A DNA stretch of 64,000 nt from NCBI GenBank assembly GCA_050084515.1, contig CM114271.1, positions 40,610,001-40,674,000 on the forward strand. Direction: 5' to 3'. The notes beneath the pieces were generated by a model. It was not told the DNA's origin. It did not search any database and saw nothing but the letters and a program-made list of their open reading frames with translations. The DNA is from Blasia pusilla. Lineage: Eukaryota. Of the stretch, positions 28,018 through 63,543 are shown piece by piece. The position numbers were made by a program, and so were the translations under genes. How positions within the stretch are numbered: position 1 is the first letter of the stretch; the number at the start of each line of letters is the position of its first letter.

Positions 28018-28634
28018 TTAAGTCGTACGAGGCGACCCTACAAGTTTTTCCGTTACATTTAGTTAACTCGATCATGGATCTAAGCCATCTCCATGAGGGT
28101 GAAGGTTGGTAGTACTAAGCACATGTGACATGGTAGTTGCTCTGTTTAGCTGAATGCGGAAGGTTTGTATTGTGAACTTCTATGTAGTTTGGATATGTTA
28201 CCATAGTATTTGAACCCTAATACTAAAGCGATACCTAACTCTCTACCTAGTTGTGCATCTTATATATTACTGTCTTTGTTCCATGCTTGCTCTAAGATGA
28301 GAAATATTTGCGTTCTAAGCTCGTCTTGTATGTGTAGTCATCCATGCGCTCCAACCAACTATGTCAGATCTAATTGACCTAAGATAGTTTGCTGTTGTAG
28401 CTGCGCATCTCGCGGAGATTGCATTCAGTTTCAAAATTGAAGCCTTTACTTCATATACTACTCTACCACAATGTAGTGGATCCGTTTTAAGGTGTATTCT
28501 CTATTGACACTTGATCTCGTGGATGAGAGGATATCATAGTTTCTATGAAACATTCATTTTGTTTTAGTGTTGAATGCTTATGGTTTCGTTTCTTTCGTTG
28601 TGGTTTTGTTTATTCAATTTTAGACCACACTAGA

Positions 28635-29623: not shown

Positions 29624-30530
29624 CTAGATGTAATCAAAACATTTTTTATTTCTGTATAGCTATTCTATACATTCTCATAACCATTTATGGCTGTGTTCTA
29701 GATCATAGAGTCAATTGAAAACATTGAATTTTTATAGCCCAATTGAAATCTTGTGAGTTTATCCTTTTTTCACCACAATTTTTTTTTTATCTAGACAACA
29801 TGGATTATGGGTATGTATAGCCACAATTACTTCCACTTGAGACATGCCGACTCTTGTTTGGTTTGCTCATTCTAGATTGTTCTATCTATCCATTTGTTAT
29901 TAAGTCATGGGGATATCAGTAGCGATGTGTCACAATTGTTCAAACTTTGTCGCCTCTTGTGCATTTACTTGAGTGGATTTTAAATGACCATATCCAACTT
30001 GGTGGTGTGGTGTAGCTTTATATAGTTTCTGCTCTCTTATCTCAAAATTGAATGATGGCACTTTTTGAATACCTAAATGCGTTTTAAAGGAAACCCCCTT
30101 GTCAGCTTATAACGCTATGTTGAAGCAGTGATTAAGACAGACATAATTTCAATGTCTCACGTCTTCACTCCTTCTGTATGTTGTTGTATAGTGCAATGAT
30201 GACCATTGTACAACCTTAGGTTGAATTTTGTTTTATATGATTATGCAGCGAGGCCTACATTCAATTTGTCAACGAACACCTTTGTTTTTCTTTCCATTTC
30301 CTCGGATGGTCACAAGCAGAAACCACGGCTCTAGTTGTTCCCTCATCCGGTTGTCGCGTTTACAAATTATGGACTAGGTATGTATACTCCACAATCACAA
30401 TGACTTCAAAGTTTTGCTTAATGCTTGGTAATCTATGGAATTTTATGAAGCAAGAATTTACCACATATGGTGCAACTGAATAGCATCCCCCGGGGTATTC
30501 GCCGGGCATGAATACCTGCGGTCCATCATG

Positions 30531-33500: not shown

Positions 33501-36500
33501 GGCAGTTAAGTGAGCTCTTGGAAAAGGGTTACATTAGGACTAGCAAGTCACCTTATGGAGCACCAGTTCTTTTTGTGAAGAAGAAGGATAGAAAGATGAG
33601 GCTATGTGTTGATTACCGTGCGCTGAATAAAGTGACGGTTCGGAACAATTATCCTCTTCCGAGGATAGATGATCTCTTCGTTAGGCTGGCAGGCGTGAGA
33701 TATTTCAGTAGGATTGACTTGAAGTCAAGATATTACCAAATCCGGATTGCCGAGGCAGATGTGGAGAAGACTGCGTGTAGGACAAGATACGGTTCCTTTG
33801 AGTTTGTAGTGATGCCTTTCGGTCTATGTAACACGCCTCCGACGTTCACCACATTGATGAACTCCATTTTTCACAAGGAAATGGATGAGTATGTTATCAT
33901 CTATATTGATGACATACTTATCTATTCGAAGTCACTAGAGGAGCACGTTCGACATGTGAGAGCGGTCTTGTCTAAGCTAAGGGAAAATCAGCTGTATGCG
34001 AATGTAGAGAAGAGCGAATTTGGTTTGAGCAAGATCAAATTATTGGGTCACGTGGTCAATGCAGATGGCGTCAGTCCAGACATGGAGAAGGTGAAAGTGA
34101 TTGTCGAGTGGGAACCCCCATCCATTGTAAAGGGGATGAGGAGGTTCATAGGTGCGGTGTAGTTCTATCGCACTTATGTGAAAAACTTTTCGGGAATTGT
34201 GAGACCTCTCACGGATTGGACAGCAAATTTTTCCAACACGACTTGGACCCAAGAAGTTAATGAGGCATTCCGCCGAGTGAAGCAGATTCTATCGCAGGAA
34301 CCAGTATTGAAGCTGCCGGAGTTTGACAAACCGTTCGAAGTGCATACCGATGCTAGTGATTTCGCGGTTGCAGGAATGTTGGTGCAAGAAGGGAGATCGG
34401 TAGCATACGAGAGCAAGAAGCTTAGCGATACTGAAAGGAGATGGCCCACTCACGAGAAAGAGTTGTTCGTGGTGGTACATTGCTTGAGGAAGTGGCGGCA
34501 TTATCTAGGGCTCCACAGGACTCGAGTATTCACCGATAATATATCACTCAAGTATTTTGAGACCCAGGATCGAGTGACACCGAAACAACTGCGATGGCAT
34601 GATACCTTTGCGCTGATGGATGTTGAGTTGATTCACAAGCCAGGTAAAGATAATGTCTTTCCAGATGCGTTGAGTCGCAAGGAGGAACACATGCCATCGA
34701 CGACACAGGTCTTGAGAGCAATGTTTCCTAAAGAAATAGACCTGGAAAGAAGGATTCGTGAAGGATATATGAAGGATGCTCACGCAGGGGAGTACCTGAG
34801 GAAGTTGAAGCAGGGTGAGAAGGTGGCCAACATAAGTTTGAGCCACGGTTTACTAAGGTTCAAGCAGAGTAGGATCTATGTAGGGCAAGGCAGGATGCGA
34901 ACCAAAGTGTTAACGGAGTGTCACGACGGACCCTTGGCAGGACATAAAGGAGAGAAATCTATGTTGGCTGTTCTGTCGAGGCGAAGCGGTTCTTTTGGCC
35001 CAACATGAAAGAGGATGTTGCTCAATATGTGAAGACCTGTGTGACCTGCCAAGCGAATAGAGTTTCTTATGATAAGAAACAAGGCTTGTTGCATCCCTTG
35101 CCGATCCCAGAAGGACCCTTGCAAAGTGTGAGTATGGATCTCATCACGAGTCTTCCGGAATCTGAGGGATACAACGCTATACTTGTGATTGTTGATTGGT
35201 TTAGCAAGTTGGCGAGATTCGTGCCGACGGTGGATTCCGCAACGGCTTATACGACGTCGCAACTATTTCTCGATAGCTGGTGGCGTGCTCACGGTTTTCC
35301 AAGGAGCATTGTTTCAGATCGGGATCCAAAGTTTACCAGTGCTTTCTGGAAGCACTTGTTCAAGAGGTTTAAGACCAAGCTGAGTTTCAGTATGGCTTTC
35401 AACCCACAGACGGATGGACAGACTGAAAAGGTAAACTCAATCGTGAATCAGTACTTAAGGAATTATGTCAGTGCTGATCAACGAGATTGGGTCAAGTGGC
35501 TGAGCATGGCGGAGTACTGCTACAACTCGACCAAGCATTCTGCAAGTGGAGAATCTCCGTTTCTCGTGGAAAATGGACGAGAGCCAGAAGGGCCTCTTGA
35601 CCTAGACCTTTCGAAGGGTACTACATTGGCACGAACACGACAAGCGACGGCAGAAGGTTTGTTGGTAGAGATGCGAGAACGGGAAGAGCGAGCAAGGCAA
35701 AGTCTTGCAAAGGCTTAAATGAGGTACGTTAAGCATGCTAACAAGAGTCGGCGCCAAGTACGATTTCAAGTTGGAGAGCAAGTGTGGTTGAGTGTGAAGA
35801 ACCTCACTCTTCCGAAAGAGTTGTTTGCGAAGCTGTCTGCCAAGTTTGCTGGACCGTATGTGATTGTGGCAAACCCGTTTGAGGATGTGTATACTTTGGG
35901 GCTGCCGATCGAGTTCAAGATTCACCCAACCTTTCATGTGTCATTGTTGAAGAAATATCTTCAAGATAATGGACGTTTCGAGCAGAGACAAGTGGTGAGG
36001 CCGCACCCGGTGATCATAAATGAAGAGCCGGAGTTTGAGGTGGAGACCATCTTACGTTCGAGGCGTCGGGCCAACAAGTATGAATACTTGGTTAAATGGA
36101 AGGTCTACCATGTGAAGGAGGCAACTTGGATTGCGGAGGCGGATTTGGAACACGCGCAAGAGTTGTTGCGAGACTTCAAACATAAGCAAGTTTAAGCACA
36201 TACGTTAGTACGAGGAGAAGCTAGAGACATGACTTGTACCCATTGGAATCTTGGGCCAAAGGCCGTTGTAACTAGAATATGCTAGTGTTGCAATAAAGGA
36301 GTGTATGGATTTGGAGATTCGATGCCAGAGTTGATTGCAATTTGTATGTGGGAGTGCATGGCTATGAGTCGTTCATCATAGGCTTAGGATGTAAGTCAAG
36401 AGGACAGACAAGGAGTATTTGAGGTGAGAGCTCGTATGTGGATAAGCACCTAGAACAGGACCTTGTGTTGGATTGCACTCGGGCTCTCCCTAGCTTCGGC

Positions 36501-37899: not shown

Positions 37900-37904
37900 T
37901 CATG

Positions 37905-40380
37905 TGTCATAAATCAATCTCTGAAATAAAAGTGTGAGTGTAGACCAAATGAAGACCATGCCTTGCACTTCTCCACATTCCTTGGTTGATCAACACGTGC
38001 CAACTGAGCATCAAAGTGTCAGAATTTAGGGATAACTACATCTCCAAGACATACAATATGATTATTGTCCGCAAATAAAAGGGAAATACAATCAAGAAAG
38101 GCCGACCTCCATTATATAGAGAAATTTTTAGTAATAAGCTTATGCAAATGGGGCACCACCGAGGAAATCTCATATACAACTACATTTGGAGAACTCCAAA
38201 ACCATAACCTCCTCTTCAAACCTACCATTGTCGCGACCCTCATAACCAAAGAGCACCAAGTAGGCGCCAAGCAAAATATCAGAACTCAAGGGAACTCACG
38301 TTACGAGGTTTGCGCTTTGGAGAGGCGTTTGGAAAAGAGGAATTGCGGGTTAGCTACCAGAACGCGATTCAATGTTAAGGGGTCGGCTTCCCAGAACTTA
38401 ACATTAATAAGGTTTGCGTTGAAAAGGAAATCAACCTTCTAAGGAGGGGTGAGTGTCGCGACCCTCATAACCAAACAACACCAAATAGGCGCCAAGCGAA
38501 ACATTACAACTCAAGGGAACTCACGCTGCGAGGTTTGCGCTTTGGAGAGGCGTTTGGAAAAGTCTCTTGGAAAAGTCTAAGAGAAGAAACGCGAAACAGA
38601 GTTGTGCGTTTCATGCGTTAGTGGTCGCGACCAGGAAACTTAGACCAAAAGCGAGCCAAGACTTGAGATGAGTTGAGTGTGGGGAGGTTGGTTGCCAAAG
38701 AGGTGAGAACCAGTTTGGAACACGACTAGCGTTTGGGAGAATCTGACTGTGTTTAGGACCATAACGTTGAGCTCCAAGATGCGTTTGGGACAAGTAAGGG
38801 CGCGTTGGAAATCTGATCTTAAGACACTTCCGACCCACCAAAGATCTCAGCAAACGCATAAGTACAGGCTGAGATATTGGCCAAAAACGATTGAGAGAGC
38901 AATCGGGTTGAGGGCCAATTGGAGAGGCTCGGGTGTCTTTCCCTAAATGTAGGGGGCCCCTGGAGATCCCCAGAAGTACTAGTAAGGGAGGAGTCCCTCG
39001 GAGATGTCTCGAGAAACGAGTCCCCACTTTGGGCGCCAAACGACGTTTCAGAGGCACGGGATGGAACGGGAGTTTGGCGTGGGAACTCGAAACCCAAACC
39101 TGATCCAAGGGAGTGGACTTTATACGCCACACTTGGATTCCAACCCGAGATTCACTTCATGCAAGTCTCGATGAGGAACTCATTGGATTTCCATCGGACA
39201 GTTGGAACCGCTAGGCGCGAAACGCCGTTTCAGGTTCCTGAACCGCCCATAAAGTCTGTCCCAAGTCTTTCGAGATTTGCCCGTGTTGTAAACCGCGAAA
39301 CTAGGAAGGTTGAGCTTGATGAGAGTCCGAGACGAGAACTCGGAAAGTAATCCCGCTGATTGATCCAAGACCTGACTAACCAAAGTGCGTGTTTGGATGC
39401 AGATCAGCGTTGAGAGCGTGACCTACTGAACGCACGCCTCCGCAACAAACAAGATTAACGTTCAAGGAGAGTAGGCGCACGACAACCATGGTGCAAATAG
39501 AGGGCAAAAGGGGCCCCACTAAAAGCTCACACAAAAGAGATGAGGCTTGTAACGGGGCCATTTGCACCCTTCACCTCAGAGAAGATGATTGCACGAGACA
39601 CTAGGTTGACGGTATTCTCAACATCTACTTGTTAAACCACCCTCTCTGAATGTATATCAAACAAAGACCTCAAACCTAGTGTGACAGTTTGACGATTGGT
39701 TGGGATGGCCATTCCAAATTGATGCAAATAGAGGTGTGACTAGAAGGCCTCACGGCGTTGCAAAGAAATAGTGCTTTTCACCAACCTCAAAGTAACTATG
39801 ACGTTCGGACAAATCTCTCTAGCCCTTAGACAAGAGCCAAGAGTAACTCTGTCCTCAATACCAAGGCCATTGGTGCTAGAAGTCTCCATGGAGCTACGTG
39901 AGAGGCAACTTGTAGCAACTTGGAGAAGCCATTGGAAAATTCTTTGGGGGAAAAATCCTAAACATGTTCTTACACCATGCGAAAGAAACCTCTAAAAAGC
40001 AAGCTGTAGAGATGGTCCAAGTGCCTGTGCAAAGAGAGTTGAGTTTAAGCAAAGAACTATGTGAGGATAGAAGTTGACCAAAATGTCAATCCTTGGGCAA
40101 GGATGTAGCCTCCTAAGGACATGGGTAGTATCAATAGAGAGAGGGTGAAGAGGTAGCGCTACTCATGAGTACTCCCAAGCATGTCTTAGTGTCATATAAC
40201 ATCACAACGTGGGTGCTCCAAGGTCATCTCGGGGGAAACCAAGTGTAGTGCTTCCTTTGGATGCAAGCCGCAAACTCGCTCTCAGTAGACTCCTAATCAC
40301 ATGTACGAAACTACTTCAATCGAGCCAAAGTCCACCTATGGCCGGTCTTCCTACCTCGAGTATAGCACAGACATCAACGT
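37905..40380 (-). mobile_element. Old CRE-clade non-LTR retrotransposon RT relic, interrupted by the 38229-39484 insertion
   Basis: Minus-strand peptides RLVKSTISLQRREAF*SHLYLHQ(F)G, LRSLFDIHSERVV*QVDVENTVNLVSRAIIF, then across the insertion DFLGGAPFA, FADNNHIV and QLARV..NVEKCKAW follow the order of RT subdomains 2-7. Confidence 0.65.
38229..39484 (+). mobile_element. Internally deleted LTR element: ~105 bp of 5' LTR + 3' UTR/PPT + complete 3' LTR
   Basis: TGTCGCGACCC at 38229 and again at 38454. The spacer is homologous to 36781-36898 and ends in AAGGAGGGGTGAG (PPT). TSD ACCAT at 38224-38228 and 39485-39489. Confidence 0.9.
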
Positions 40381-47559: not shown

Positions 47560-49850
47560 CCAATGAGAATGTTCGCCTTCTAAACCATTAATTGTTCAAA
47601 AAGGTGTTTATCACGTCTTTTAGGATAGATCGGTGAGATCTAGTAGAGCTCCTTCTCTAGTAGTGAAGGAAAGGCTCATGAGGTCAAAGATGACATGCTG
47701 AGGCCCCGATTAACCTAAGAGAGCAGGTTTCCCCTTCGTTTCGGCTCATTTGGAGCTATATTGAGGAACTTACTATTTTAGGTAAGTACCATTTTGAGTA
47801 GATGGTCGAATTTCTATTTTTGGTAAGTGGCCCTTGACCTCCTACATCAGGTCAAGAGCCAAGGAGGTGATTTGGGAGCATAGGTTACCATGGAGAGAGC
47901 TCGGGGGAGGGGAGGGGTATACCTCAAGGAGAGGCAGTTTGAGAGTTCATTCTCTTTTGTTGAACCTCTTGGCAAGAGGCGGCAGAGCTATGGTCCCTTG
48001 CCTTGTGAGTGTAACCCAAGTCTCTCATTAGGAGAGTGGGTTTGGTTTGACATTGAGAGAGACATGTGTAATGTCCAAGTGTTTCTTATTTACAGTCAAT
48101 TGTAGAGTTCGATCCCCAAGAGGATGATTGTTGGATGAAAAGAGAGTATAAAGTGATTATTATGTTGTAAAAGTAGTGTGATTGATTATGTAATTCAAAT
48201 TTAGTATTCCAGTAATATCTTCCGATCCTTTTTAGTACCTATGTTTTCTTCTTCAATTCTCTCGAGTGGAATTTAAAGTACGCTCAGGCAATTTGTTCTC
48301 TCGACATCTCGGAACCTCACAGAGACCTCAAGAATAAAGTTGGCTTCTCCTACTTTCGGAACTCAATCCGTCTGGGCAGGTTACTCTCTGTCAAACAGAT
48401 TTCATACAACTCTATGTTGATTATTCCATTGATGAGAAAGGTTTTCCTGATTCATTCTTCACTCGGCAGACCCAAAAAGAATATTCAGACATAAGCATCG
48501 CACATCAGAATGAATGAATGAGTGCTTTACGACTCCATCAAGAATTGGAAGACTTCAAAGTATATACAAGCTCGAGAGGGTACAACTCTCTTGCTCGGAC
48601 CATTCCTACAGCATAAGGACTTCATGAGTGAATGATAATAATAGTTCATCTGTTTCTTAAATATTCTAGAGTAGGAGCGTTTCTATGATCCGAAGCGTTT
48701 TTGATGAAGTTGGTGTCTCTTCAATATCTGTAACTACCTAGATCTATGGTGTGTGTTCCTTTTCCTATGATCCCTGTGAATCTGCGGTACAAAACTGTTC
48801 TAACTACCAATTTGATACAAAGGGTCGCGCCCCTTCCTAGTCTAATTGTTTTAACTATGTGCCGGTTCGAATCACAATCATCTTTGAAGCCATTGCGCTA
48901 AATTTCCGGAGGACGAAGTTCTTCATTCTTCATTCTCTTCGTGCTTCGCTCTTCGTGCTTCGCTTAAGAGCGAAGTACTTCGTATACAGAGCTTCGTTGA
49001 GCTTCGCTAAGCTTCGCGTTGATCCTTTATACCTCGTTACTGCTTTTGATTCTCCTCTAAGGCAAATCCTTGATCTTCCATCTCTCTGCCTTGTCTTAGG
49101 AGCTTCGTGATTCACTTGAATCTTATTCGTTCTTCTCCATAATTGCATATAATAATCCAAACCATAATGTACAAGAGTCTTTGTTCAATAAAAAGATATA
49201 TTTCTTCCAAAGTACAAAATTGTGGATATCACAACATGTGAGAGTGCATATATGTGAGAACTATGGTATTGTGAGAGAGATTGGATCTTATTTTACAAAG
49301 GTAGAATGAGTGAGTGAGAGAGCTTCATGGGGGAGTTCGCTAGTTGCTCGATGTTTGGTGCACGTTGGGGGACAGTATTCCCCACTTCATGGCTCATGGG
49401 AGTGCTCACCGGAGTAAGAGCCGTGCGAGTTTGCTGTTTTGCTTTGCTGATTTTTTGCACGGGAGAGTGGCACGCGGAAGCGCTACCCAATTTTTGATAG
49501 GAATTGAGTATGGGGGCGGATTTCTCCATGCCGGTGCTCTTGGGAGCACCATATAGCTTGCTGATTTGTGTTCTCACAGGTCTTACATTTTCCTTGGGAG
49601 AAATCAGAGCGGAAGCGCTCCCGAATTTTGTGTAGGAGAAAGAGACGTTGGGCTTTACGATAGTCCCCGTCAATTTTTACTGGAATGTCCGATTCAAAAT
49701 ATTTTTTGACGCCATTGTAGATCGTGAAGCTGTGCAAGCTGTGAAACACACGGTGTGCAATTTGGATTGCGAGCAAAAATTTATGGTCAATCTTGCAAAA
49801 CTGCCATTGCTAGGCAATTTTAGGGTTAAATTGTTCAAACTCTAAACCAG
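47560..49850. mobile_element. LTR-like retroelement debris, boundaries unresolved
   Basis: The minus strand at ~48810-48835 reads GGGGCGCGACC-c-TTTGTATCAAA, resembling the LTR end GGGGCGCGACA followed by a decayed TGGTATCAGAG PBS. No coding motifs found. Confidence 0.3.
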
Positions 49851-52800
49851 CCGCCACGCCGGCGGTGGCAGTCGCCGTCATAGTCACCATCAACGGTCCG
49901 CCATCGATAGTCAACCGTCACCATCAACAATCCACCGTCCTCCGTCCATCGTCGGCTGCCTCTGCCGTCTATCGCTACTCAGAGTCGCGTTCGGCCGTTC
50001 TCCACCCTTGGTTGCCATTGCCGCCATTACAGAGTGGAGGGTCTTCCACAACGACCGTTGATTCTTTGACTTGCGCGGCTACCACATACTTTCTTTTGTC
50101 CGCCACCGTCATCGTAGTTTCGTCATCAACCAGTGATGGCAGGTGACCTCGGGTTATGGAGTTTGAGTTTTCATTTCATGCTGGTATGTTGTGATTGGTA
50201 GCCACTCGACGATGATCGAGTACTGTGCCATGACGCCCAAAGCCGCAACGCGTTGTCGATTGCCGCGCCGTGCCAGTCATGGCTGCATCGCACCATCTCG
50301 ATTGCGGAGCCGCTCCTTCACTAAGGAGCAGAGCATGGGAATTTATGATTGAGGAGGGTATGCCTTCGAGTGCCGCACCCCATTCCCGAGTGTCGTGCCG
50401 TTTTTAGCTGATCCGTGCCACCAATGCCGCACCGGACCGCTGGACCTGCACCGCACATCGAGGAGGTTTGAGCAGCGTCAGTATGAGAGGAGTACAACTT
50501 GCTGATTGGAGGAGTTATCGTCACGACCAAGTTGGGCTTGATATTTGCAATTGCCGAGGAGCAATATCGACATTATTGTCAGGTTACCCATTCTGGTCTC
50601 TTACCCTGTAGGTGTGAGGGATTTCCGGGTATTCGGAAGTTATTTGGGATATTGGGTTTTGTACTGATGCTGAGAGCATTGATGATGTATGGGTTTAGGG
50701 GACATAGACCTATGTGGGATGTCCAGAGTTGAGGATGGTCTTTCGATGAGACGATAGATCAGTTGATTTGCCGCACCACGCCGCTTGTTGCCGCATAGCA
50801 CACGTCTCAATGAGAGAGGGTAGATTGAGTGCCGCATGTTTAGTTTGAGTGATTGAAGGATTACTCGCAAGATTGAGAGTGATCGTGTGAGAGGGGCACG
50901 AGGGTCATCACGGCGTCCTTTCATGATTTTGAGAGGCGAGGTAGTGGACCTGAAGGTAGCTCTGGAGGGTTTGCCCGGAGTGATACGAGGTTTCAAGGAT
51001 CTCCACGTGAGAGAATACATCGATCTCCTTCTATGTCATCTTCAGACAAGGGGGAGCGTGTAGAGGAGTGTGTTAGTGATCCACCGTACATATTGAGTGG
51101 TCCTACTAGTTGGGCGTACCAGATGGACGACTAGGATAGAGGACCGCGTAGGTTTTTGGATGTTGTAGGCACTAAAGAGCTACACGACTTCATTGCGGAG
51201 TTTAGGAGTCGGTGTGACTCATAACGGGCTAGGAACTCTAGAGAGTTCAACCCATTTACAGCATGGAACGGTATGTTCAAGCATTTAGAGGAGGCGCCCA
51301 TGGACGATTACCATGAGTTCTCCCATAGATATGCCCATGAGATTAAGGCATGGCGACTCTACTATGACTCACATTATGTGTCATGGACAGAGCCGTTTCG
51401 AGATGAGGAGGAGGATTCAGGAGAGGCTACTTCCTCTTCCACTAGTGATGTTTTAGGAGGGGTCACTTGCACTGGAGCAGTTGCACCGTCTAGTCGGGTT
51501 TTTTCCCAGGTTCAACACCGTGGTTGAGTTCTTCGCTGAGTTGAGGGCGAGCTACCAGGGGATACGGATGAAGAAGTTGCGGAGCATCCACGAATTCCAC
51601 AGGCGCCCGGGTGAGAGTTTGTGTGAGGCTTACACTCACTTGCAACGGTTGATCAATGTCACTCAAGGGGTGATAGAGGCTTAGGTTATCCAATCATGGT
51701 ACGCAATGTTGGATCGGACCCTGCGGACACGGGTGTGCGAGGGGGTGCTTCTTATGAACACCTTCCCTACATTGAGAGATGGTTTTAGGATCGCCGAGAA
51801 CATTGAGCGCAACATGGCGGAGGAGAGTGTAGCCACCATGGGTTCTGGGCGAGAGCAATCATGATTATCTACACCACTGGTGCATCAACGTGGACTCCGA
51901 GATAGGTTGAATGTGGCACCACGAGCTCAGGGAGGATACCGGAAGGCCGTGCCACAGAGACCTGCTCCTTTATATGCGGCTCAACAATAGCCGCCTACGA
52001 TTACTTGTTGGTCATGTGGCAGACCCCATCATCAACATGAAGGTCATGGACGTGTGCCTCAGCATGGATGAGGAGATGGTACTACACCAAGAGGTTATCA
52101 GTGTGACTATTTTCAGAGGTATGGTCACACATGCGCCAAGTGTTTCAATTTACACGCTCAATTATGTCCCAATTGAGGGCCAGAGAGGGCACCACAACGA
52201 GTAGCCGGTCCGGGTGGGCTAGAGATTGTGCACTTGGTGGTCCTGTTGGGGGACGAGGAGCTGGAGTTGCTCAACAGGATGGTGGAGCTGGACGTGGAGG
52301 AGGTAGAGTCCCACCACCTAGAGGCGTCGAGGAAGATACAACAGCTACAGGAGGAGATTGCCGCTATAGCATTGAGGTTACCCGATGCCGGATCCATGGT
52401 ATCGACATCATATGGAGGATCCTGGTTGGATGTGCGAGATTGCCCAAATGGAGGCCGCAAAAATTGTGACGCGTGGAGCCGCCGCAATTGTGACGTGGGG
52501 AGCAGCCGCAGCGTTGGATCCACAGCGAGCGGAAGCCAAGAAATAGACCAGGCTTTCTCAGTATTTCACGTTGTCCAAGGCGATGAGGACCCCATCGATG
52601 GGTCCTAATCAGAGTTCCCAGAGAGTTGGTGATGTTATTGGTGTGCATGCACAGAGGGCAATGGGAGAAATGAGTGGGACATCTCCTATTGATGATGCTC
52701 AAGAGGAGCATGTGTCGAGTACGATGTTGGGGGCGGCCTCGATGGTGTATCGTGCTCCGCTATTTTCTGCTTCCGATGTTATGACATTGGGAGGTACGCC

Positions 52801-53812
52801 CGCCGAGGTGTTCTAGCTGGCCGCTACGCTATATGAGCATGGAGTTGGAGTTCCTACATCACGTTCAGAGGTGATTGCAGAGGAGGTGATGGACCTGCCC
52901 TTGGAGCTGATGCTCGGGCCGTCCACGTCAGATTCATGGTAGGCTGCGACAACTAGGATGGCGGAGATGCCCGCTCGACCCGCGATAGAGCATGCCATGG
53001 CTTCTCCTCATGTTGTGTTATTGGATAACCGGGGAGAGGTTTTCTAGTTGGTGAGTCCCAGAGGTAAAGCTTTTAGTCCGCAGCGCGTCTTGTTGGATTC
53101 ATGATCAGGAGCGCAACCCCTGATGTTGGGGAAAGCGTCATTCAGAGGATTGGGCTTGACGAGAGCTGATATGGAGCGTTGTCCATTTCGGATACAGACA
53201 TCCTTGGGTGGAACGAGTACCACATAGTATATCACCCGACAGGAGGTCGTGGTGAGAATTTTCTCGGGACATCCTATGGATGAGTGCTTGGTGCAAACCA
53301 AGGTGATAGTGACTGACGTAGAGTCCTACAACGTCTTGGTTGGTGGAGTTGTGTTATATCCGATGGGGTTTTCCCTAGATTATTGGGAGGAATCAGCGTC
53401 CTACAGACCAGGATGGCAATTAGGTGATTGGCGCCTTAGCTCATTATCCGTTCGATTCACAGGTGCAGTGATCGAGCGACGGCCAAGAGAGATGGCGATC
53501 TTAACAACATTTAGCAGTGCCATCACTTGGCCTAGTGATTTGATTGAGGGACATGTCCAACCGGATAATACTCTTGTTCTTGACATTTCTATGGAGAGGA
53601 GTGTTATGGTAGCCGAATCAGTCCGTGGAGGAGAGGTGCCACTTTGGGGCTCGACTGAGGAGCTTTGGCGCTTAGCCACTGAGCATGTGCACATCCTGTG
53701 AAGCGAGACGTTTGCACTAGAGTGTGAAGGGTTAGAGGAACCCTAGGTAGCCAAGAGTTTTGCTATGACCCCTTTGGACACCACCCTGATTGTGTGGTGC
53801 ATCCCCGAGGAG

Positions 53813-54720
53813 AGTATTCGGGTGTTGGATCTCTTTGGAGGGATCAACACTGGGTTAGCTGCTGTTTTGCAGGCAAGAATACGCATGCAAAAATACCTAT
53901 ATGTGGAGATTGATGATGTTGCGAGGCGCGCTTCACTTCACCATGTGGCGCAGTTACGCCTCAATTTTCCCGACTTATTGTTTGCGTCCGCTGTCTAGGG
54001 ATACAAGAGTTTCCTACCAAGGGACATTTCATTGTTGGGGGCGCAGGACTTGGACCGGGTAGGGGCCATAGATTTGGTCATTGCTGGTTGGTCGTGTCAG
54101 GGCCAATCAAGTGCTGGACGAGGAAACTGATGCTGATTTTTTGAAACTTGCAGGAGCATCAGTTTCGTTCTCCAGCATACAATCTCGAGAATATGCCGAT
54201 TTTGGGTGATTTGAGGTCTCGCGTGGTGTAGATTGCACATCAAGTGCGCCCATGGATTGGCCGGTCAATTTTGTTGGATGCGGCGAGTGTGGGTTCACGA
54301 GCACATTGCCCGCATCTTTGGTGGACCAACTAGGTACCACACGAGGTGTTTCCGAGGGCATATGCCAAAATGGAGCGCCCCTCGGATTTTTTGGTGGATT
54401 CTATATTGGATCCGGGCCGTCTATCATAGGCAGTGAGGCTAGATGATCAACCGCCGTTGACTGTGGTCAACAGGATTGGCATGCCACAAGCAACCTTTCC
54501 CACATTGGTGAGTTTTCTCGCTTCCTATGCATTCAAGGAGGCCGTACCTAGCTTGGTTTGGGATGACCAGGAACAGAAGTTGGTGGAGCCCAACGCCGAT
54601 GAGTGAGAGCGAGCGATGGGATTCCCCACAAGAGTGACGGCAATACTGTCACTATCAGAGGCATCACGACGTCATGTCTTGGGTTAGGCGATGGACCTGA
54701 ACTGCTTGACATGGATTTTC
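53813..54720 (+). pseudogene. C5-cytosine DNA methyltransferase domain (DNMT3-like motif pattern) embedded in retrotransposon pol
   Basis: Motif I IRVLDLFGGI; II YVEID; III PRDI; IV DLVIAGWSCQG (Cys codon 54095-54097); VI YNLENMP; VIII DAASVGSRAHCPHLWWTN; IX E*ERAMGFP; X RRHVLG*AMDLNC. Motifs are in canonical order, with several stops and a small deletion/frameshift after motif IV. Confidence 0.88.
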
Positions 54721-57700
54721 AGCTTAGGAGTAGCTGAGCAACATGGTTTGAGGATGTGACAGATCACACCAGTTGCGTTGGTGATCCCCATGCCTACCGA
54801 GACGGTTATGGGAGGAGCTGGGGACGAGATCCGAGGAAATCGACACACCAAGGATGATCGGGAAAGACACCCTTGGACTTCTTGGGATGTTTTGCAGGTA
54901 TGTTAAGAGATGGTAGCCACAATATCCACTTTTGTAGTTGGATGCAAGGGAGCAGTCGAGTTTTGTTGTCCGAGACGGGGTTGCACCATAGCAACCACCG
55001 ACACCCGCGTCAGAGAGTCCTATTGTAGTCACGATGGAGACTTGGGAGACAGATATGGGCCCTAAGTTGACAGGAGGAGAGCGGCGCCGGATACACCAAT
55101 TCCTTAGGAGTTATAGGAGTTGTTTTGCATTTAGTATGCATGATTTGGGTACGCTGAAGGGTCCAGGGATCCGCATTGAGTTGTTGATTGACACGTCGTT
55201 CTTCCGACAATCCTATAGGTACAATGACATGGAGAGGGCTCTGATTCAGAGTAGGATCTAGGGCTTGGTTGGAGCAAGACTAGTGGAGATGTCTCATGGA
55301 GAGTATGCATTTGCCATTTTCATGCCCGCCAAGAAGGATGTGCATGGCAACTTGACGAATAGCCAGATGTGTGGAGATTATCGACCTATCAATCGGCAGA
55401 CGAAGTCCGATAGGTATGCCATGCCCACTCTTGAGGAGATCTTTGATGCTATTGGGCATTCAAAGGTCTTCAGTTTGTGAGATCTTCGAGCCGGATACCA
55501 TCAACTGCCTATCAGATTGGGTGATAGGCAGAAGATGGCATTTTGGGGCATCGATCCTCATGGGAAGGATTGCTTGAACCAATGGTGGTTCTTACCATTT
55601 GGGTTAAAGAACGCCCTGGATGAGTTTCAGAGGGTCATGGATAGGATCTTGGCAGGTCTCAATTTTGGTAGGTGTTATATTGATGACAACGTAGTTTTTA
55701 GCGCCACGGTTGAGGAGCATGAGCAATATCTAGAGGAGGTGTTTCGACCATTGCAGTTACATGGGCTGAAGCTACATCTAGGCAAGTGCAAGTTCTTCTA
55801 CGACCAAATTGAGTACTTGGGTCATACGATATACCCAGGGGGCCTTGGTGTGCAACAGACGAAGGTAGAGGCTATTTCACGCATTCCATGCCCTAGAGAT
55901 GTGAGTGGAGTTCGTGCATTCATGGGATTGGCGAACTTCTATCGACAATACGTCAAGGATTTCAGTTCAATTGTGAAGCCGCTAACCTTGCTGACCAACG
56001 TGGATTAGGAGTGGCACTGGGGGGATGAGCAGCAGAGAGCATTTTAGTTGCTCAAGGATAGATTGACCTTCGTGACCATATTGAGGAGACCGATCAGGGG
56101 GCGCCCTTTCCAATTGCATACCGATTGGAGCATGTTGGGGCTTGGAGCTGTGCTCATCTAGCATGACAATGATGGTAGAGAGTTTGTGGTGGCTTACGCT
56201 AGTCGCTCAAATAACGCTGCAAAGGCGAAGTATAGCTGGTATGAGGATGAGTGCTTGGCTCTAGTGTGGGTTGTCGCACATTTCAGATGTTATCTATTCG
56301 GAAATCACTTTATCATCATTACTAATCATCAACCACTTAAGTGGTTGATGGAGTCCGACAAGCTTATAGGGAAGCTTGCGAGGCAGGCTCTTTCCTTGCA
56401 GGAGTATGACTTCCAGGTGGTGCATAGATCTGGGATGCTCAACCAAGATGCATATGGTTTGAGCCATAACCCATGCTCGAGTCAACGAGATGCGACTGGA
56501 GCTCGTTGGCATGGTGAGAGTGATGAGGAGTTGGTGCCAGGATGGCATGCGTCAACCTATTTGGGCTTGTTGGCTATAGAGAGCAAGATTGTTCACACTT
56601 CGATGGCGAGGTCAGATCGAGAGGCTGGTGAGGAGACAACAGGTGGCCGAGACATTCACGACGATGGAGTGGTCTTGGAGAACCTGCGTAGTGGCAGCAT
56701 CGCAAGCACAGTGGATGCTAGAGAGCGGGATCGGATCTTACAGCGAGCCAGACGGCTCTGATGGGAGGGGACACATGTGTTGCGAGTGTGTGTAGTGCCT
56801 TATCCTTTGCAGAGAGCACGTTTGGTGCGTCATGCTCATGAGGAGTTGGATCATTTTGGAGTGAAGCGGACATACACCTTGCTCCAGATTCTGTATTGGT
56901 GGCGAGGGATGCAAATTGACGTTCAGTAGTTTGTTGCCAGATGCATGGTGTGTGATTGAGTCTGAGCATTTTTCAATGCTCCGACTCCACATTTGCATCC
57001 ACTTCCCATCATGGGTTTAGGTTAAAGATGGAGTTTGGATTTTGTAGGACCTTTGCCTTTGACAGAGCACCATAGTCGCTATGAGTTGGTGATGGTCAAG
57101 CACTTCTCGAAGTGGATAGAGTTGGTTGCATATTCGGGAAAAGCGAGTGAGGGAGTAGCGTGTGCCTTCCTAGATTGGATGCTAAGTTATTACAATGCAC
57201 CAGCGGAGGTGTTGACAGACAAAGGTACAGAGTTCCGTGGGGAGTTTCAGGCCTTGTGTGATTAGGCACTGATCGACCACCGCACTACTTCGCGAGATCA
57301 TCTTGAGGCGGATGGACTAGCGGAGCGGGTTGTGCAAATGGTGAAGAGAGGACTACGCAGGTATGACTTGCACAGAGGTCACCTAGGACATTGGGACCTC
57401 CAGTTGCCGTGGTTGGTGATGGGATACATATTCAGCAAGTAGACATCCTTAGCGTCGTTCTCACCGTACTTGCTTTTGTATGGCCGAGAGCCAGATTTAC
57501 GTGTGGCCATTCGTCGAGATGTTGAACCTTGATGACCTTGATGTATGGATGCGAGCATGTTCTTAGAGGGCTGAGTTGTTTTGGAGAGTGATGCCCATGG
57601 CGTTGAGAACTTGGCGATTGCGCAACATCGGGATACATTGAGGTATGCAACTATTCGGGGAGGTGGTTATCAACCTACTATCTAGAGGTTTCATCATGGA

Positions 57701-57922
57701 GATTATGTCTACTTATAGCAGACAGAACCCTCAACGTTGGATGTGATTGCAGGGCGAACCATTTTGAGAGTGCGTGAGGTTTTGCCATTCGATGTTCTCT
57801 TATTGGAGGGACGTGATGGTATGGTTTGGAAGGACCATGTGCATAACTGTGCGCCATGTCATCTTTTGAACATTGAAAATACAGTTGACCCGAGCTTAGC
57901 AGTAGTTCCTACCGGCTTGCAG

Positions 57923-58063
57923 TGTATGTTGGGTGGTTTTGCCTGTGGTGCAGCCACTATGCTAGTCTATGATGGATGTTCGAGAGGATGGCATATGGCA
58001 TGTTTGACGCTACCTCTCACTAGGGTTCTTTAAGGATGATGGATGTATCTTAGATGTACATAG
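57923..58063 (+). pseudogene. PHD finger (C4HC3) at the integrase C-terminus
   Basis: CMLGG..ATMLVYDGCSRGWHMACLTLPLTRVL*G*WMYLRC. The inverted copy gives CMLCG..MLVYDGCSR*WHMACLTPPLTRVLQGRWMCLRC. Confidence 0.8.
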
Positions 58064-58346
58064 CGTAGATAGTTCTATATTCTTACTTATGTTTGTGACA
58101 TGGATGACAAGAAGGCGACCAACGATAGGGCCACATGAGCACTTGGCCTTCTTGCTCTTAACATTTGAGAGATGTATGTCATGGTAGGTAGGGATAGATG
58201 GCTATCTGGAGTTAGAGGGACCTAACCACGAGCTAGGGGGGCGATTGGAGATATTTTGGTACTTCTTGTCTCGTTGTTTGGATGCCATGAGTTAGCATGG
58301 GATTGTGCGTGTGTTTAGTGATAGCGATGTGTATACGCACGACAGC

Positions 58347-61300
58347 TGTCACGTCTGTTGTACGCATACACATCGCTACACAACATACATCATTGTCACC
58401 AAACACACACACAAACACGCACAATCCCATGCCAATTCATGGCATCCAAACAACGAGACAAGAAGTACCAAAATATCTCCCCCCTAGTTGGTGTTTAGGT
58501 CCCTCTAACTCCACATAGCCATCTATCCCTACCTACCATGATATACATCTCTCGGACGCTAAGAGCAAGAAGGCCGAGTGCTCATGTGGCCCCATCATTA
58601 GTCGCCTTCTTGTCATCCATGTCACAGACCCAAGTTGGAATGTAGAACTATCTACTCTATGTACATCTGAGACACATCCATCGTCCTTGAAGAACCCTAG
58701 TGAGAGGTGGCGTCAAACATGCCATATGCCATCATCTCGAACATCCATCATAGACTAGCATAGTGGCTCCACCATAGGAGGAACCACACAACATACAACC
58801 CAAGCCTGTAGGAACTATTGCTAAGCTTGGATCAACTATATTGTCAATGTTTGGAAGATGACACGGCGCACAGTTACGCACATGGTCCTTCCAAACCATA
58901 CCATTGCGTCCCTCCAATAAGAGAATACCGGATGGCAAAACCTCACGCACTCTCAAGATGGTGCACCTTGCAATCACATCCAACATCGTGGGTGCCATCT
59001 GCTGCAAGTAGACATAGTATCCTTGATGAAACCTCCAGTTAATAGGTCGATAACCACCTCCCGGAATAGTCCCATACCTCAACGTATCCCCATGTTGCGC
59101 AATCGCCAAGTTCTCAAACACCATGGGCATCACTCTCCGAAACAACTCACCCCTCCGAGAACATGTTCGTATACATACATCAAGGTCATCAAGGTTCAAC
59201 ATCTCACCAACATCTTGACGAATGGCCGCAGGTAAATCTGGCTCTTGGCCACAAAGCAACAAGTACGGTGAGAAGGACGCTAAGGATGCCTGCCAGCTGA
59301 ATGTGTATCCCATCGCCAACCACGGCAAGTGAAGGTCCCAATCTCCTAGGTGACCTCTCTACAAGCCATACTTACGTAGTCCTCTCTTCACCGTCTGCAC
59401 AACTCGCTCCGCTAGTCCATCCGCCTCAATATGATCTCGCGAAGTAGTGCGGTGGTCGATCAGTGCCTAATCACACAAGGCTTGAAACTCCCCGCGGAAC
59501 TCTGTACCCTGGTTTGTCAACACCTCAGCTGGTGCACTATAATGACTCAACACTCAGTCTAGGAAGGCATACGCTACTCCCTCACTTGCTTTGTTAGGAA
59601 ATGAAACCAACTCTATCCACTTCGAGAAGTGCTCGACCATCACCAACACATAACGACTATGGCGCTCTGTCAAAGGCAAAGGTCCTGCAAAATTCATCTA
59701 TAACCTAAACCCATGATCGGAAGTGGATGCAACTATGGATTTGGAGCATTGAACGATGCTCGTACTTGATCACACATCATACATCTGGCAACAAAGTGCC
59801 GAACGTCAGACTGCATGTCTCGCCCCATCACTATTGAATTTGTAGCAAGATGTACGTCGCTTCACTCCAAAATGACCCAACTCCTCGTGGGCATGACTCA
59901 CCAAACGTGCTCTTTGCAAAGGATGAGGTACTACACGCACTCTACCATCCCCCCACACTCGTAACACATGTGTGCCTTCCCATCAGAACCGCCTGGCTCG
60001 TTGTAGGATCCGATCCTGCTCTCTAGCACCCATTGTGCTTGCAACGCTGCTAGTACGCAGGTACTTCAAGACCACTCCATCGTCGTGAATGTCTCGGCCA
60101 CCTGTTGTCTCCTCATCAGCCTCTGGATCTAAGGACTCTCCATCAGACCTCGCCATCGAAGTCTCAGCAATCTGGCTCTCCATAGCCAACAAGCCCAAAT
60201 AGGCTGATACATGCCATCTTGGCACCAACTCCTCATCACTCTCACCATGCCAACGATGTTGCGACCCTCATAACCAAACAACACCAAATACGCGCCAAGC
60301 GAAACATCAGAACTCAAAGGAACTCACGCCGCGAGGTTTGCGCTTTGGAGAGGCGTTTGGTAGAGTCTCTTGGAAAAGTCTAAGAGACGAAACGCGGAAC
60401 AGAGTTGTGCGTTTCATGCGTTAGTGGTCGCGACCAGGAAACCTAGACCAAACGCGAGCCGAGACTTGAGATGAGTTGAGTCTTGGAGGTTGGTTGCCAA
60501 AGAGGTGATAACCAGTTTGGAACATGACTAGCGTTTGGGAGAATCTGACTGTGTTTAGGACCATAACGTTGAGCTCCGAGATGCGTTTGGGACAACTAAG
60601 GGCGCGTTGGAAAGCTGATCTTGAGACGCTTCCAACGCACCAAAGATCTCAGCAAACGCATAAGTACAGGCTGAGATATTGGCCAAAAACGATTCAGAGA
60701 GCAATCGGGTTGAGGGCCAATTGGAGGGGCCCGGGTGTCTTTCCCTAAATGTAGGGGGCCCCCGGAGATCCCCAGAAGTACTAGTAAGGGGAGTACCTTC
60801 TCTGAGATGTCTCGGGAAACGAAACCCCACTTTGGGCGCCAAACGGCGTTTCAGAGGCACGGGATGAAACGGGAGTTTGGCGCGGAAACCCGAAACCCAA
60901 ACCTGATCCAAGGGAGTGGACTTTGTACGCCACACTTGGATTCCAACCCGAGATTCACTTCGTGCGAGTCTTGGTGAGGAACTCATTGGATGTTCATCGG
61001 ACAGTTGGAACCGCTAGGCGCGAAACGCCGTTTCAGGTTCCTGAACCGACCAGAAAGTCTATCCCAAGTCTTTCGAGGCTTGCCCGTGTTGGAAACCGCG
61101 AAACTAGGAAGGTTGAGCTTGAAGAGAGAGTCCGAGACGAGAACTCGGAAAGTAATCCCGCTGATTGATCCAAGACCCGACTAAATGAAGTGCGTGTTTG
61201 GATGCAGATCAGCGTTGAGAGCGTAACCTACTGAACGCACGCTTCCGCAACAAACAAGATTAACGTTCAAGGAGAGTAGGCGCACGACAAACGAGCTCTA

Positions 61301-62797
61301 GTCGTATCTCATTGACTCGGGCATGGGTTACGGCTCAAACCATGTGCATCGTGGTTGAGCATCCCAGTCTATGCACCATCTGGTAGTCGTACTCCTGCAA
61401 CAAAAGAGCCCACCTCGCAAGCTTCCCTATAAGCTTGTTGGACTCCATCAACCACTTAAGTGGTTGATGATCAGTAATGATGGTAAAGGGATTGGCAAAT
61501 AGATAACATCTAAAATGTGTGACAACCCACACTGATGCCAAGCACTCATCCTCATACGAGCTATACTTCGCCTCTACAGCATTGTTCAAGCGACTAGCGT
61601 AAGCCATCACGAACTCTCTACCATCATCATCATGTTGGGTGAGTATGGCTCCAAGCCCCAACGTGCTCCAATCGGTATGCAACTGGAAAGGACACCCCTT
61701 GATTGGTCTCCTCAATATGGGCAGGGACGTCAATCTGTCCTTGAGCATCTGAAATGCTCTCTCTTGCTCATCCTCCCAATGCCACTCCTTATCCACCTTG
61801 GTCATCAAGGTTAGCGGCTTCGCAATCAAACTGAAACCCTTGAGGTATTTTCGATAGAAGTTTGCCAATCCCAAGAATGCACCAACTCGATTCACATCTG
61901 TTGGGCGTGAAATAGCCTCTACCTTTGTCTGTTGCACACCAAGGCCCCCTGGGTATATTGTATGATCCAAGTACTCAATCTGGTCGTAGAATAACTTGCA
62001 CTTGCTTGGATGTAGCTTCAGCCCATGTAACTGCAATCGTCGAAACACCTCCTCTAGATGTCGCTCATGCTCCTCAACTGTGGCGCTAAACACTATGATA
62101 TCATCAATATAACACCTAACAAAATCGAGACCTACCAAGATCCTATCCATGATCCTCTGAAACTCAACCGGGGCGTTCTTTAACACGAATGGTAAGAACC
62201 GCCACTCGTACAAACAATCCTTCCTATAAGCATCGATGCCCCAAAATGCCATCTTCTGCATGTCTTCTAATCTGATAGGCAACTGATGGTATCCGGCTCG
62301 CAATCCAATGAACTAAAGACCTTTGCATGGCCAATCACATCAAAGATCTCCTCAGGGGTGGATATGGCATACCTATCAGACTTTGTTTGCTGATTGATAG
62401 GTCGGTAATCTCCACACATTCGCCTATCCGTCTAGTTGCCATGCACATCCTTCTTGGCAAGCATGATAGTGGCAAATGCATACTCTCCATGCGACATCTC
62501 CACTAGTCCTGCTCCAACCAAGTCCAGGCTCCTACTCTAAATCAGAGCCCTCTCCATGTCACTATACTTGTAGGATCGTCGAAAGATCAGAGTGTCACTC
62601 GACAACTCAATGCGGATCCCTCGACCATTCAACGTACCCAAATCATGCATACTAAATGCAAAACAGCTCCTATAACTCCTAAGGATCTGGTGTATCCGAC
62701 ACCGCTCTCATCCTGTCAACTTAGGGCCCATATCAGGCTCCCAAGTCTCCACCATGACTACGATAGGACTCTCCGGCGTGGATGTCGGTGGTTGCTA
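58347..62797 (-). mobile_element. Second, inverted copy of the PHD/DNMT gypsy family (RT-RH-IN-PHD-3' LTR); interrupted by a solo LTR and cut off just before the DNMT region
   Basis: ORFs 61335-62303 (RT/RH: CYIDDIIVFS, FQLHTDWS), 59983-60228 and 58732-59328 are collinear homologues of 54990-58345. LTR at 58347-58543 ends in CGTGACA on the minus strand. Confidence 0.9.
60257..61289 (+). mobile_element. Solo LTR, same subfamily as 38454-39484, inserted in the inverted gypsy pol
   Basis: TGTTGCGACCCTCATAACC...GCACGACA. TSD AACGA at 60252-60256 and 61290-61294. The host pol resumes on both sides. Confidence 0.92.
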
Positions 62798-63543
62798 CGT
62801 AACCATCCTTTGTTAGTCATAGTTAAGTTAGAATCTATGACATGAAGCGCATAAGTGAGAAAGAATCAACCAAAAAGAGAAAAAGACAAGATACATGAGA
62901 TAAAGATGAGAGTGGGGCCATAGGTTGGTGAAAAGGAAGATAAGGATGAGGTTGAGGAAGATGAGGTTGGGACATTAGACTCCAAAGGAGATCCTTTCAT
63001 GCTATGAGAGTAGGACATGTGGCATAAGGATAGGTAGAACTAATTTGTCTTCATTGTACCTATCTCTAAGTATATAAAGGAAGAGGAGAGGCCTTGAGAG
63101 CATTCTACCTTTGAGCAATTCTAGAGTGGTTCCGTGAGCTAGAGAGCTACAATGGTATCATAGCAAGGTTGATCTTTCAACGAGAGTGGATTATCCCTCT
63201 TGGAAGTATGACCAAGTAATGTTTTTTAACACTCGATGTATAGTCCATGTGGTTTGTCAACCTAAGATAGCATATAGAGAGTTTATGGTGAGGAAGTTTG
63301 GCCAAGAGTATTATGATAAAGTCATTACGTCAACACTGCCTTTTATAGTCCCTATTGTGCAAAATTGGCAAGTATATATCTTGATCTTATATTAGAGTGA
63401 TATTAAAGGGTTAGGGAAAAGTCGGAGCGATCATGGAAGAAACTTTGAGGGATATGATTCGTGAATTGAGAGAGTTGAGAGTTGTATTTGATTAAAGTCA
63501 AAACCAAGTCCAAGAATTAGCGCAAGAAGTTGCTTTGGTCAGA

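What the first reader, a model, noticed from the sequence alone, without database searches (positions are those of the whole stretch)
57923..58797. PHD finger instead of chromodomain on integrase: a chromatin reader paired with the methylation writer
Seen: both copies end pol with a C4HC3 pattern (consensus CMLC-x9-LV(Y)DGCSRGWHMACLTPPLTRV.QGRWMCLRC, then stop). Both carry TAT where the third Cys is expected. Established: PHD fingers read the histone H3 N-tail, and animal DNMT3s use a PHD-like ADD domain. Inference: the polyprotein combined a histone-reading targeting module with a de novo methylase. It could choose its insertion chromatin and pre-mark its own DNA, in contrast to the chromodomain element 22 kb upstream.
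Basis: partly seen in the sequence, partly recalled or inferred. Interest (0 to 1): 0.72.

Follow-up and report, generated by a model that had tools for sequence, protein, structure and literature searches.

The report
PHD-tipped integrase in methylase-carrying retrotransposon

Summary
The PHD finger is real. Copy B passes the Pfam cut-off (E 9.9e-9); copy A is more decayed (5 of 8 ligands). Of 41 copies, 26 have Cys at ligand 3; the TAT in 13 is scattered on a star-like tree and sits in a CHG context, so it is repeated decay. The PHD is in frame with integrase, behind an SH3-like barrel, where chromoviruses carry a chromodomain. The element is a Ty3/Gypsy with a DNMT3-like domain and A…B-A-B split repeats, as described for KnitGypsy-Dnmt3. 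PHD and DNMT travel together from chlorophytes to bryophytes, in two domain orders. An in-frame stop with the TMV-type readthrough signal (26 of 28 copies) lies between DNMT and RT, so the DNMT is probably made mostly without the PHD. The PHD belongs to the unmodified-H3 class (closest fold ATXR5, no K4me3 cage) but has lost most acidic H3-binding residues. No binding, targeting or methylation is shown; the Klebsormidium enzyme was inactive in yeast. Gypsy PHDs and reader-plus-writer elements are both published. New variant of a known kind.

The parts
57923..58063 (+). Copy A PHD finger (5 of 8 ligands, two internal stops) and terminal stop
58657..58797 (-). Copy B PHD finger (7 of 8 ligands, one internal stop) and terminal stop
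57671..57874 (+). Copy A SH3/Tudor-like barrel (integrase C-terminal domain) before the PHD; bounds mapped from the model of another copy
   Evidence: residues 50-117; foamy virus integrase 308-375 Z 6.7, rmsd 2.9, 67 aligned
56810..57330 (+). Copy A integrase zinc-binding and DDE core
   Evidence: PF17921 E 1.7e-13, PF00665 E 8.7e-10
55361..56407 (+). Copy A reverse transcriptase and RNase H
54989..54997 (+). Family-conserved in-frame TAG followed by CAACCA (CAR-YYA readthrough context) between DNMT and RT
53795..54750 (+). Copy A DNMT3-like C5 methyltransferase, decayed (frameshift between motifs IV and VI, stops); bounds approximate
   Evidence: other copies: PF00145 E 1.6e-11 to 8.9e-9, DNMT3A best in PDB
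51400..53500 (+). Copy A Gag region with zinc knuckle (52006) and protease region (53105); by motif and position only, no Pfam hit; bounds approximate
47609..49295 (+). Copy A 5' repeat A1, split by an insertion at 48069-49233; 4-bp target duplication TGTT at 47605-47608
58244..58353 (+). Copy A repeat B1 and the B1|A2 junction, an end-to-end palindrome (…GACA-2 nt-TGTC…, from 58338)
58356..62797 (-). Copy B, RT to B1, inserted antisense just inside copy A's A2 repeat; holds a solo LTR of another family at 60257-61290; its conserved stop is at 62797-62795
62798..63150 (.). LTR of a younger nested element that separates copy B's RT from its DNMT (partner LTR 23.4 kb further on, outside the window)
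36034..36183 (+). Chromodomain of the unrelated chromovirus used as comparison

Best explanation
Both PHDs belong to dead copies of a Ty3/Gypsy family built as A1 - Gag - PR - DNMT3-like - leaky stop - RT - RNase H - integrase (Zn, DDE core, SH3-like barrel, PHD) - B1 - A2 - B2 (shown). The PHD is the integrase's tail and most likely tethers the integration complex to nucleosomes through the free, unmodified H3 N-terminus (Ala1, Arg2), not H3K4me3, which would bias insertion away from active promoters (inferred). The DNMT is translated ahead of the stop, so it is made in excess over RT-integrase-PHD, which needs readthrough (stop shown, readthrough inferred); it most likely acts on the element's own cDNA in the particle (inferred, after PMC5890265). 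Reader and writer are two modules serving one element at different steps, not an ADD-DNMT3-like unit. The TAT at ligand 3 is repeated deamination of a methylated CHG cytosine after insertion (scatter and context shown, cause inferred).
For: Frame and order. Barrel then PHD: model pLDDT 86.8; best fold ATXR5 PHD-H3, Z 9.6, rmsd 1.2, 51 aligned. The 60 best PDB sequence matches shown include CHD4, KAT6A, DPF3, KDM5 PHD1, PHF21A, AIRE, BAZ2A/B, UHRF1 and ATXR5, and no ING, BPTF, TAF3 or PYGO finger (ligand classes from PMC3241642 passages and recall). On KDM5A PHD1 numbering (10.1101/715474), the Ala1 pocket (L309 41, P331 33, W335 38 of 41) and the essential Arg2 Asp312 (40 of 41) are kept and the cage Trp place is Gly (40 of 41; Trp in 0 of 143 distant PHDs). 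Complex with the host H3 tail: weak support, 0.43 against best control 0.02, runs agree in at least 89% of contacts, partner pLDDT at least 54; such a mark was reached by 51 of 78 solved and 2 of 108 mismatched pairs, but at 0.60 or under by only 5 of 78 solved and by all 4 passing mismatches, and may come from memory of solved PHD-H3 structures. Stop: 26 of 28 copies, CAR-YYA behind it in 26 of 28, the only family-wide stop among 1,337 codons scored; 0 of 212 decay stops have CAR-YYA; 23 of 30 metagenome loci have stop-CAA-YC there; CAR YYA is the TMV readthrough signal (PMC2754532). TAT: 13 of 41 copies, 12 changes on the tree against 11.1 shuffled; CHG has the highest C/T difference rate.
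Against: The acidic sites at KDM5A 292, 305/306 and 315 are absent in all 41 own copies and nearly all 15 near public proteins; net charge about +4, which may weaken or abolish H3 binding. Close relatives P0015 and P0020 have DNMT through PHD in one open frame, and 25 of 30 distant proteins place the DNMT directly before integrase, so the separation is not general. In 14 of the 23 metagenome loci the context is CAACCC with an ATG close behind, which allows re-initiation. Gag-to-protease phase is unclear (6, 7, 5 of 18). No DNMT activity is shown for this lineage. No insertion-site data.
Confidence: 0.55

Rival explanations
1. Coupled reader-writer: PHD and DNMT act in one complex, the PHD placing or activating the DNMT on H3K4-unmethylated chromatin at the insertion site, as ADD does for DNMT3.
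For: PHD and DNMT stay together through a change of domain order; in 25 of 30 distant proteins the DNMT adjoins integrase-PHD in one frame; P0015 and P0020 are single frames; the PHD class fits unmodified H3.
Against: In this family a conserved stop and the whole RT-RNase H lie between them; protease would normally cut the domains apart (established for Ty3/Gypsy, recalled); P0256 has RT-RH-IN-PHD with no DNMT in its frame (upstream DNA not seen); co-occurrence also follows from shared descent.
Confidence: 0.2
2. In the land-plant branch the PHD no longer reads H3: the basic finger binds DNA, the nucleosome surface or a host protein, or only stabilises the integrase tail.
For: Loss of three acidic sites and net +4 in own copies against median -4 in five distant proteins; most distant PHDs keep acidic residues before Cys1 (103 of 143) and at 305/306 (91 of 143); plant PHDs without H3 binding exist (PMC9640981, title and abstract start only).
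Against: Asp312 and the Ala1 pocket are kept; in KDM5A several Lys4 contacts are main-chain carbonyls (10.1101/715474 passages); weak complex support.
Confidence: 0.2
3. The conserved stop is a true end of the Gag-PR-DNMT frame, and RT-integrase-PHD is made from its own start codon or a separate RNA, so DNMT and PHD are never in one chain.
For: A Met lies 2 codons (metagenome subfamily) or 14 codons (own family) behind the stop; RNA depth is about twice as high 3' of the stop.
Against: The six bases behind the stop fit CAR-YYA in three divergent subfamilies; no joint at 54989 among the 15 shown (19 not shown); the depth step may reflect better mapping of related families on RT.
Confidence: 0.25

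Closest known systems
KnitGypsy-Dnmt3 of Klebsormidium nitens (PMC5890265; read sections 9-11, passages, searched 3 supplements)
   Same: Gypsy domain set, intronless DNMT3-like domain in the coding region, DIRS-like split repeats
   Different: The main text has no mention of a PHD (0 occurrences) or of a stop between DNMT and RT, and places the DNMT in the Pol ORF. Fig. 4c and the main supplementary PDF could not be seen and may draw a PHD. No direct sequence comparison was possible.
Gypsy-7a_cRei and REM1 of Chlamydomonas reinhardtii (PMC9940879 passages; REM1 paper not read)
   Same: PHD finger in a Gypsy Gag-Pol, proposed to steer insertions; intergenic insertions 2.6 times expected
   Different: No DNMT listed in the figure legend; ordinary LTRs; position of its PHD relative to integrase not seen
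EpiLTRs of Cymbomonas and Euglena (10.64898/2026.05.21.726589 passages)
   Same: Histone reader plus cytosine methyltransferase in one LTR element
   Different: Chromodomain, DNMT4-sister enzyme and a DAM; here a PHD and a DNMT3-like enzyme
Chromoviruses (e.g. the element at window 32-36 kb; MAGGY, via 10.1101/2021.11.30.470311 passages)
   Same: Small reader domain after the integrase SH3-like barrel
   Different: Chromodomain read-out of methyl-lysine versus PHD read-out of the H3 N-terminus; no BLASTP similarity between the two tails; RT far apart
ATXR5, KDM5A PHD1, BAZ2A/B, DPF3 PHD2, UHRF1 PHD fingers
   Same: Fold, spacing, Ala1 pocket, Arg2 Asp, no aromatic cage
   Different: Acidic residues before Cys1 and before strand 1 are missing in the land-plant branch
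ADD domain of animal DNMT3 (recalled)
   Same: PHD-like reader of unmethylated H3K4 in a system with a DNMT3 catalytic domain
   Different: ADD adjoins and regulates the catalytic domain; here the PHD is on integrase, beyond RT and a stop; no ADD among the 60 PDB matches shown

Membership tests
PHD finger (PF00628) | C4HC3 ligands and profile score over cut-off | tested here: met
   Copy B 35.5 bits, cut-off 24; copy A below it; 11 of 31 copies with all eight ligands; 58 of 58 aligned relatives hit
PHD finger (PF00628) | PHD fold | tested here: met
   ATXR5 PHD Z 9.6, rmsd 1.2, 51 aligned
H3K4me3-reading PHD | Aromatic cage with invariant Trp | tested here: not met
   Gly in 40 of 41 copies; Trp in 0 of 143 distant PHDs. 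The place (two before His) is recalled; the feature is from PMC3241642
Unmodified-H3K4-reading PHD | Ala1 pocket and Arg2-binding Asp | tested here: met
   L309, P331, W335, D312 equivalents kept (10.1101/715474)
Unmodified-H3K4-reading PHD | Acidic cluster N-terminal to Cys1 and acidic patch before strand 1 | tested here: not met
   Absent in 41 of 41 own copies; present in most distant relatives
Unmodified-H3K4-reading PHD | Measured binding to H3 | not testable with these tools
   Only a weak predicted complex
Ty3/Gypsy | Order PR-RT-RH-IN with DDE integrase, TG…CA ends, short target duplication | tested here: met
   4-bp duplications match in 5 of 6 copies with both true ends and 3 of 4 bases in the sixth, and in copy A
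Gypsy-DNMT3 (KnitGypsy-Dnmt3 kind) | DNMT3-like domain in the coding region | tested here: met
   PF00145; DNMT3A best PDB match, E 1.4e-12; motifs I, IV, VI, VIII-X
Gypsy-DNMT3 (KnitGypsy-Dnmt3 kind) | DIRS-like split repeats | tested here: met
   A…B-A-B in own copies and metagenome loci
Gypsy-DNMT3 (KnitGypsy-Dnmt3 kind) | DNMT in the same ORF as RT | tested here: inconclusive
   Same phase but a conserved stop between; one frame in P0015 and P0020
Gypsy-DNMT3 (KnitGypsy-Dnmt3 kind) | Grouping with the K. nitens sequences | not testable with these tools
   No protein named as K. nitens came back
De novo DNMT3 | Catalytic activity on DNA | not testable with these tools
   Motif IV Pro-Cys in at least 11 of 23 copies; KnitGypsy enzyme inconclusive in yeast
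Chromovirus | Chromodomain at integrase C-terminus | tested here: not met
   PHD then stop; no Chromo hit
EpiLTR | DAM plus DNMT plus chromodomain | tested here: not met
   Frame ends at the PHD in 30 of 31 copies; no chromodomain

The most novel reading that the evidence does not exclude
A green-plant-wide Gypsy clade has rebuilt the ADD-DNMT3 logic from parts: an integrase-borne PHD selects nucleosomes with unmodified H3 tails while a DNMT3, loaded in excess thanks to a TMV-type leaky stop, methylates the cDNA, so that each new copy arrives already marked in chromatin that matches. The pairing has survived a move of the DNMT between two slots of the polyprotein, from chlorophytes to liverworts and mosses.
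Probability: 0.2. Interest if true: 0.8.

Novelty: new variant of a known kind. Interest (0 to 1): 0.5.

Why it matters
Gypsy-DNMT3 has been reported from one alga and its enzyme's role is open. This family shows that the element is abundant in a land plant, that its relatives span chlorophytes to bryophytes, and that the DNMT comes with a PHD-tipped integrase. It gives testable handles on two open questions: whether retrotransposon PHDs really target integration, and when and where a retrotransposon DNMT acts. The conserved leaky stop predicts DNMT in excess over RT and integrase, which favours action on cDNA in the particle. Stand-alone 'PHD-type' gene models in Marchantia and Sphagnum that match this tail are probably pieces of this element.

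Tried and rejected
TAT as a shared ancestral change: rejected, scattered on the tree (the tree is poorly resolved, 1 of 38 branches strong). Tail-to-tail copies as a fold-back: rejected, copy B is nested antisense in copy A's A2 and copy A has its own target duplication; the far junction of copy B is not clean. Copy B as a spliced or subgenomic copy starting at the stop: rejected, a younger LTR element inserted there. Four other frequent stops at 57530-57572 are artefacts of a local frameshift in copy A. CG excess as a trace of self-methylation: not seen; C/T differences relative to transversions were CG 5.8, CHG 8.0, CHH 1.9 against 4.6, 4.4, 1.5 in the chromovirus, 29 copies each; host methylation and age would mask it, so this is weak. 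First structure model (9 sequences) was useless, pLDDT 37.6. Pfam missed copy A's DNMT, Gag and protease; one query was in the wrong frame (protein 5). DNMT homolog search returned only 4 proteins from 8,000 scored candidates. ESM Atlas gave leads only: one integrase-PHD cluster at 0.90 (commonest Mollusca), two Chlorophyta PHD clusters under 0.9. No RNA holder of the exact stretch was listed. Nine paper searches listed no paper describing PHD with DNMT3 in one Gypsy element or this stop; most subscription papers and all figures are outside the library.

Full report
Observation. Copy A keeps 5 of 8 ligands and has two stops; copy B keeps 7 of 8 and has one. Pfam PHD passes its cut-off for copy B (E 9.9e-9) but not copy A. 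The window lies in a 390-Mb genome where the tail has 5,737 first-look candidates, of which 40 were scored. Among copy B and the 30 best loci, each ligand is the commonest residue at its place and 11 of 31 keep all eight. In 41 copies ligand 3 is TGT in 26 and TAT in 13; TAT needs 12 changes on a star-like tree (11.1 by shuffle, end branches about 0.06), so it arose repeatedly. The codon context is CHG, the context with the most C/T differences in this family.

Anatomy. Anchor spacing across 39 copies puts protease region, DNMT motifs, RT, RNase H, integrase and PHD in one modal phase; Gag to protease is unclear. The DNMT hits PF00145 in three of three copies tested in frame and DNMT3A is the best PDB match. 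A model of the integrase tail (58 sequences, pLDDT 86.8) shows a helix, an SH3/Tudor-like barrel and the PHD; the barrel matches foamy virus integrase C-terminal residues (Z 6.7, a middling score shared with many barrels) and the PHD matches ATXR5 (Z 9.6, rmsd 1.2). So the PHD occupies the slot of the chromodomain in the element at 36 kb (SH3_Tf2-1 then Chromo). The repeats are A…B-A-B, with TG…CA ends, an internal end-to-end palindrome at the B1|A2 junction and 4-bp target duplications. Copy A runs from 47609 to about 30 kb past the window (duplication TGTT at both ends); copy B sits antisense inside its A2 repeat and has its own DNMT beyond a 23.7-kb nested insertion.

Between DNMT and RT, at 54989, 26 of 28 copies have an in-frame stop and 26 of 28 have CAR-YYA behind it; it is the only family-wide stop among 1,337 codons scored, once four artefacts of a local frameshift in copy A are set aside. 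None of 212 decay stops has that context. Of 30 metagenome loci examined (several are the same locus in different samples), 23 have stop-CAA-YC at the same place: 9 full CAR-YYA, 14 CAACCC; 5 have a one-letter variant and 2 are frameshifted. In L099 a 728-codon frame holding the DNMT ends at TAG CAATCA, followed by a 1,047-codon RT-to-PHD frame. CAR YYA is the TMV readthrough signal (PMC2754532, passages). Readthrough is inferred; re-initiation at a nearby Met is a live rival. Relatives P0015 and P0020 have no stop there.

Co-occurrence. A DNMT anchor lies upstream of the PHD in 32 of 39 own copies within 10 kb and in 29 of 29 metagenome loci with room upstream of RT, out of 80 fetched. Named relatives of the tail are from Marchantia, Calypogeia and Sphagnum (61-78% identity). 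A profile search found 304 representatives at E under 1e-30; of the best 150, 30 span RNase H to integrase and 25 of these carry a DNMT between the two, one being a Scenedesmus pol. On a quick RT-RNase H tree of 36 rows the two domain orders separate (SH-aLRT 95 and 99; for five of the eight rows in the 'before RT' group the upstream DNA was not seen). Shared descent alone can explain co-occurrence, and P0256 has a PHD without a DNMT in its frame.

What the PHD reads. Its closest solved relatives are fingers of the unmodified-H3 class (class from PMC3241642 passages and recall). It registers without gaps on KDM5A PHD1 numbering as given in 10.1101/715474 (passages): the Ala1 pocket and Asp312 are kept, the cage Trp is absent, but acidic residues at 292, 305/306 and 315 are missing in all 41 copies and the finger is basic; most distant relatives keep them. 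A predicted complex with the host H3 tail gave weak support only (0.43, best control 0.02; calibration counts under Best explanation; may reflect solved look-alikes). The likeliest role is a weak or Lys4-tolerant H3 N-terminus tether; loss of H3 binding in this branch is possible.

Activity. No copy examined has an open integrase-to-PHD frame (at least 2 stops in all 21 in-phase copies listed). RNA reads of relatives lie along the whole element, mostly sense and mostly under 90% alike, deeper over RT-PHD (three raw-read runs of one study); this shows transcription of some family members or relatives, not of these copies. There is no CG excess in decay over the chromovirus control.

Comparison. 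KnitGypsy-Dnmt3 has the same domain set and repeat structure, and its DNMT gave no methylation in yeast, called inconclusive (PMC5890265 sections 9-11). Its text never mentions a PHD; Fig. 4c and the main supplementary PDF were not visible and may show one. PHDs in Gypsy polyproteins, with the same targeting idea, are published (PMC9940879, PMC6673714 passages), as are reader-plus-writer EpiLTRs (10.64898/2026.05.21.726589 passages). The plant LTR survey PMC6317226 has no occurrence of PHD or methyltransferase. My nine searches found no description of the PHD-DNMT3 pairing, its two domain orders or the stop.

Verdict. Real feature, partly right reading. A decayed member of a Gypsy-DNMT3-like clade whose integrase ends in a PHD; the pairing and the leaky stop appear unreported, the functions are untested. 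New variant of a known kind; interest 0.5.

Noticed in passing
window 58338-58353; L099:8235; many loci: The B1|A2 junction is a palindrome that looks like a joined pair of element ends, conserved as far as L099. Some copies (L005, L014, L018, copy B) end at B1 rather than B2, as if integrase can cut at the inner junction.
   Followed up: partly
P0017, P0128-P0130, P0198 and others: Distant, partly chlorophyte relatives have DNMT between RNase H and integrase and a tail of about 130-500 residues after the PHD with a Asp-Pro-Phe-x-Gly motif, which recalls an adenine-methyltransferase fold (recalled, no Pfam hit); they could be PHD versions of EpiLTRs.
   Followed up: partly
window 62797-62798: A younger LTR element inserted immediately before copy B's conserved stop; its LTR has many 96-97% copies, often in pairs about 5.6 kb apart.
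   Followed up: partly
window 28627-39485 and 60257-61290: Several related 1-kb LTRs: a 95.6% pair (30530-31528, 36898-37899) around the chromovirus, and more distant solo copies, one inside copy B.
   Followed up: no
G000:C1, about 1-16 kb beyond the window end: A diverged relative of the same family (65-74% identity) lies in pieces inside the nested insertion, so several subfamilies exist.
   Followed up: no
P0058: A protein of this element is labelled as from an uncultured cyanobacterium, probably plant or algal DNA in a metagenome bin.
   Followed up: no
L099:504-2606 and 2477-4660: Two long frames overlap out of phase ahead of the DNMT, suggesting a frameshift as well as the stop in that relative; the first frame was not identified.
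   Followed up: no
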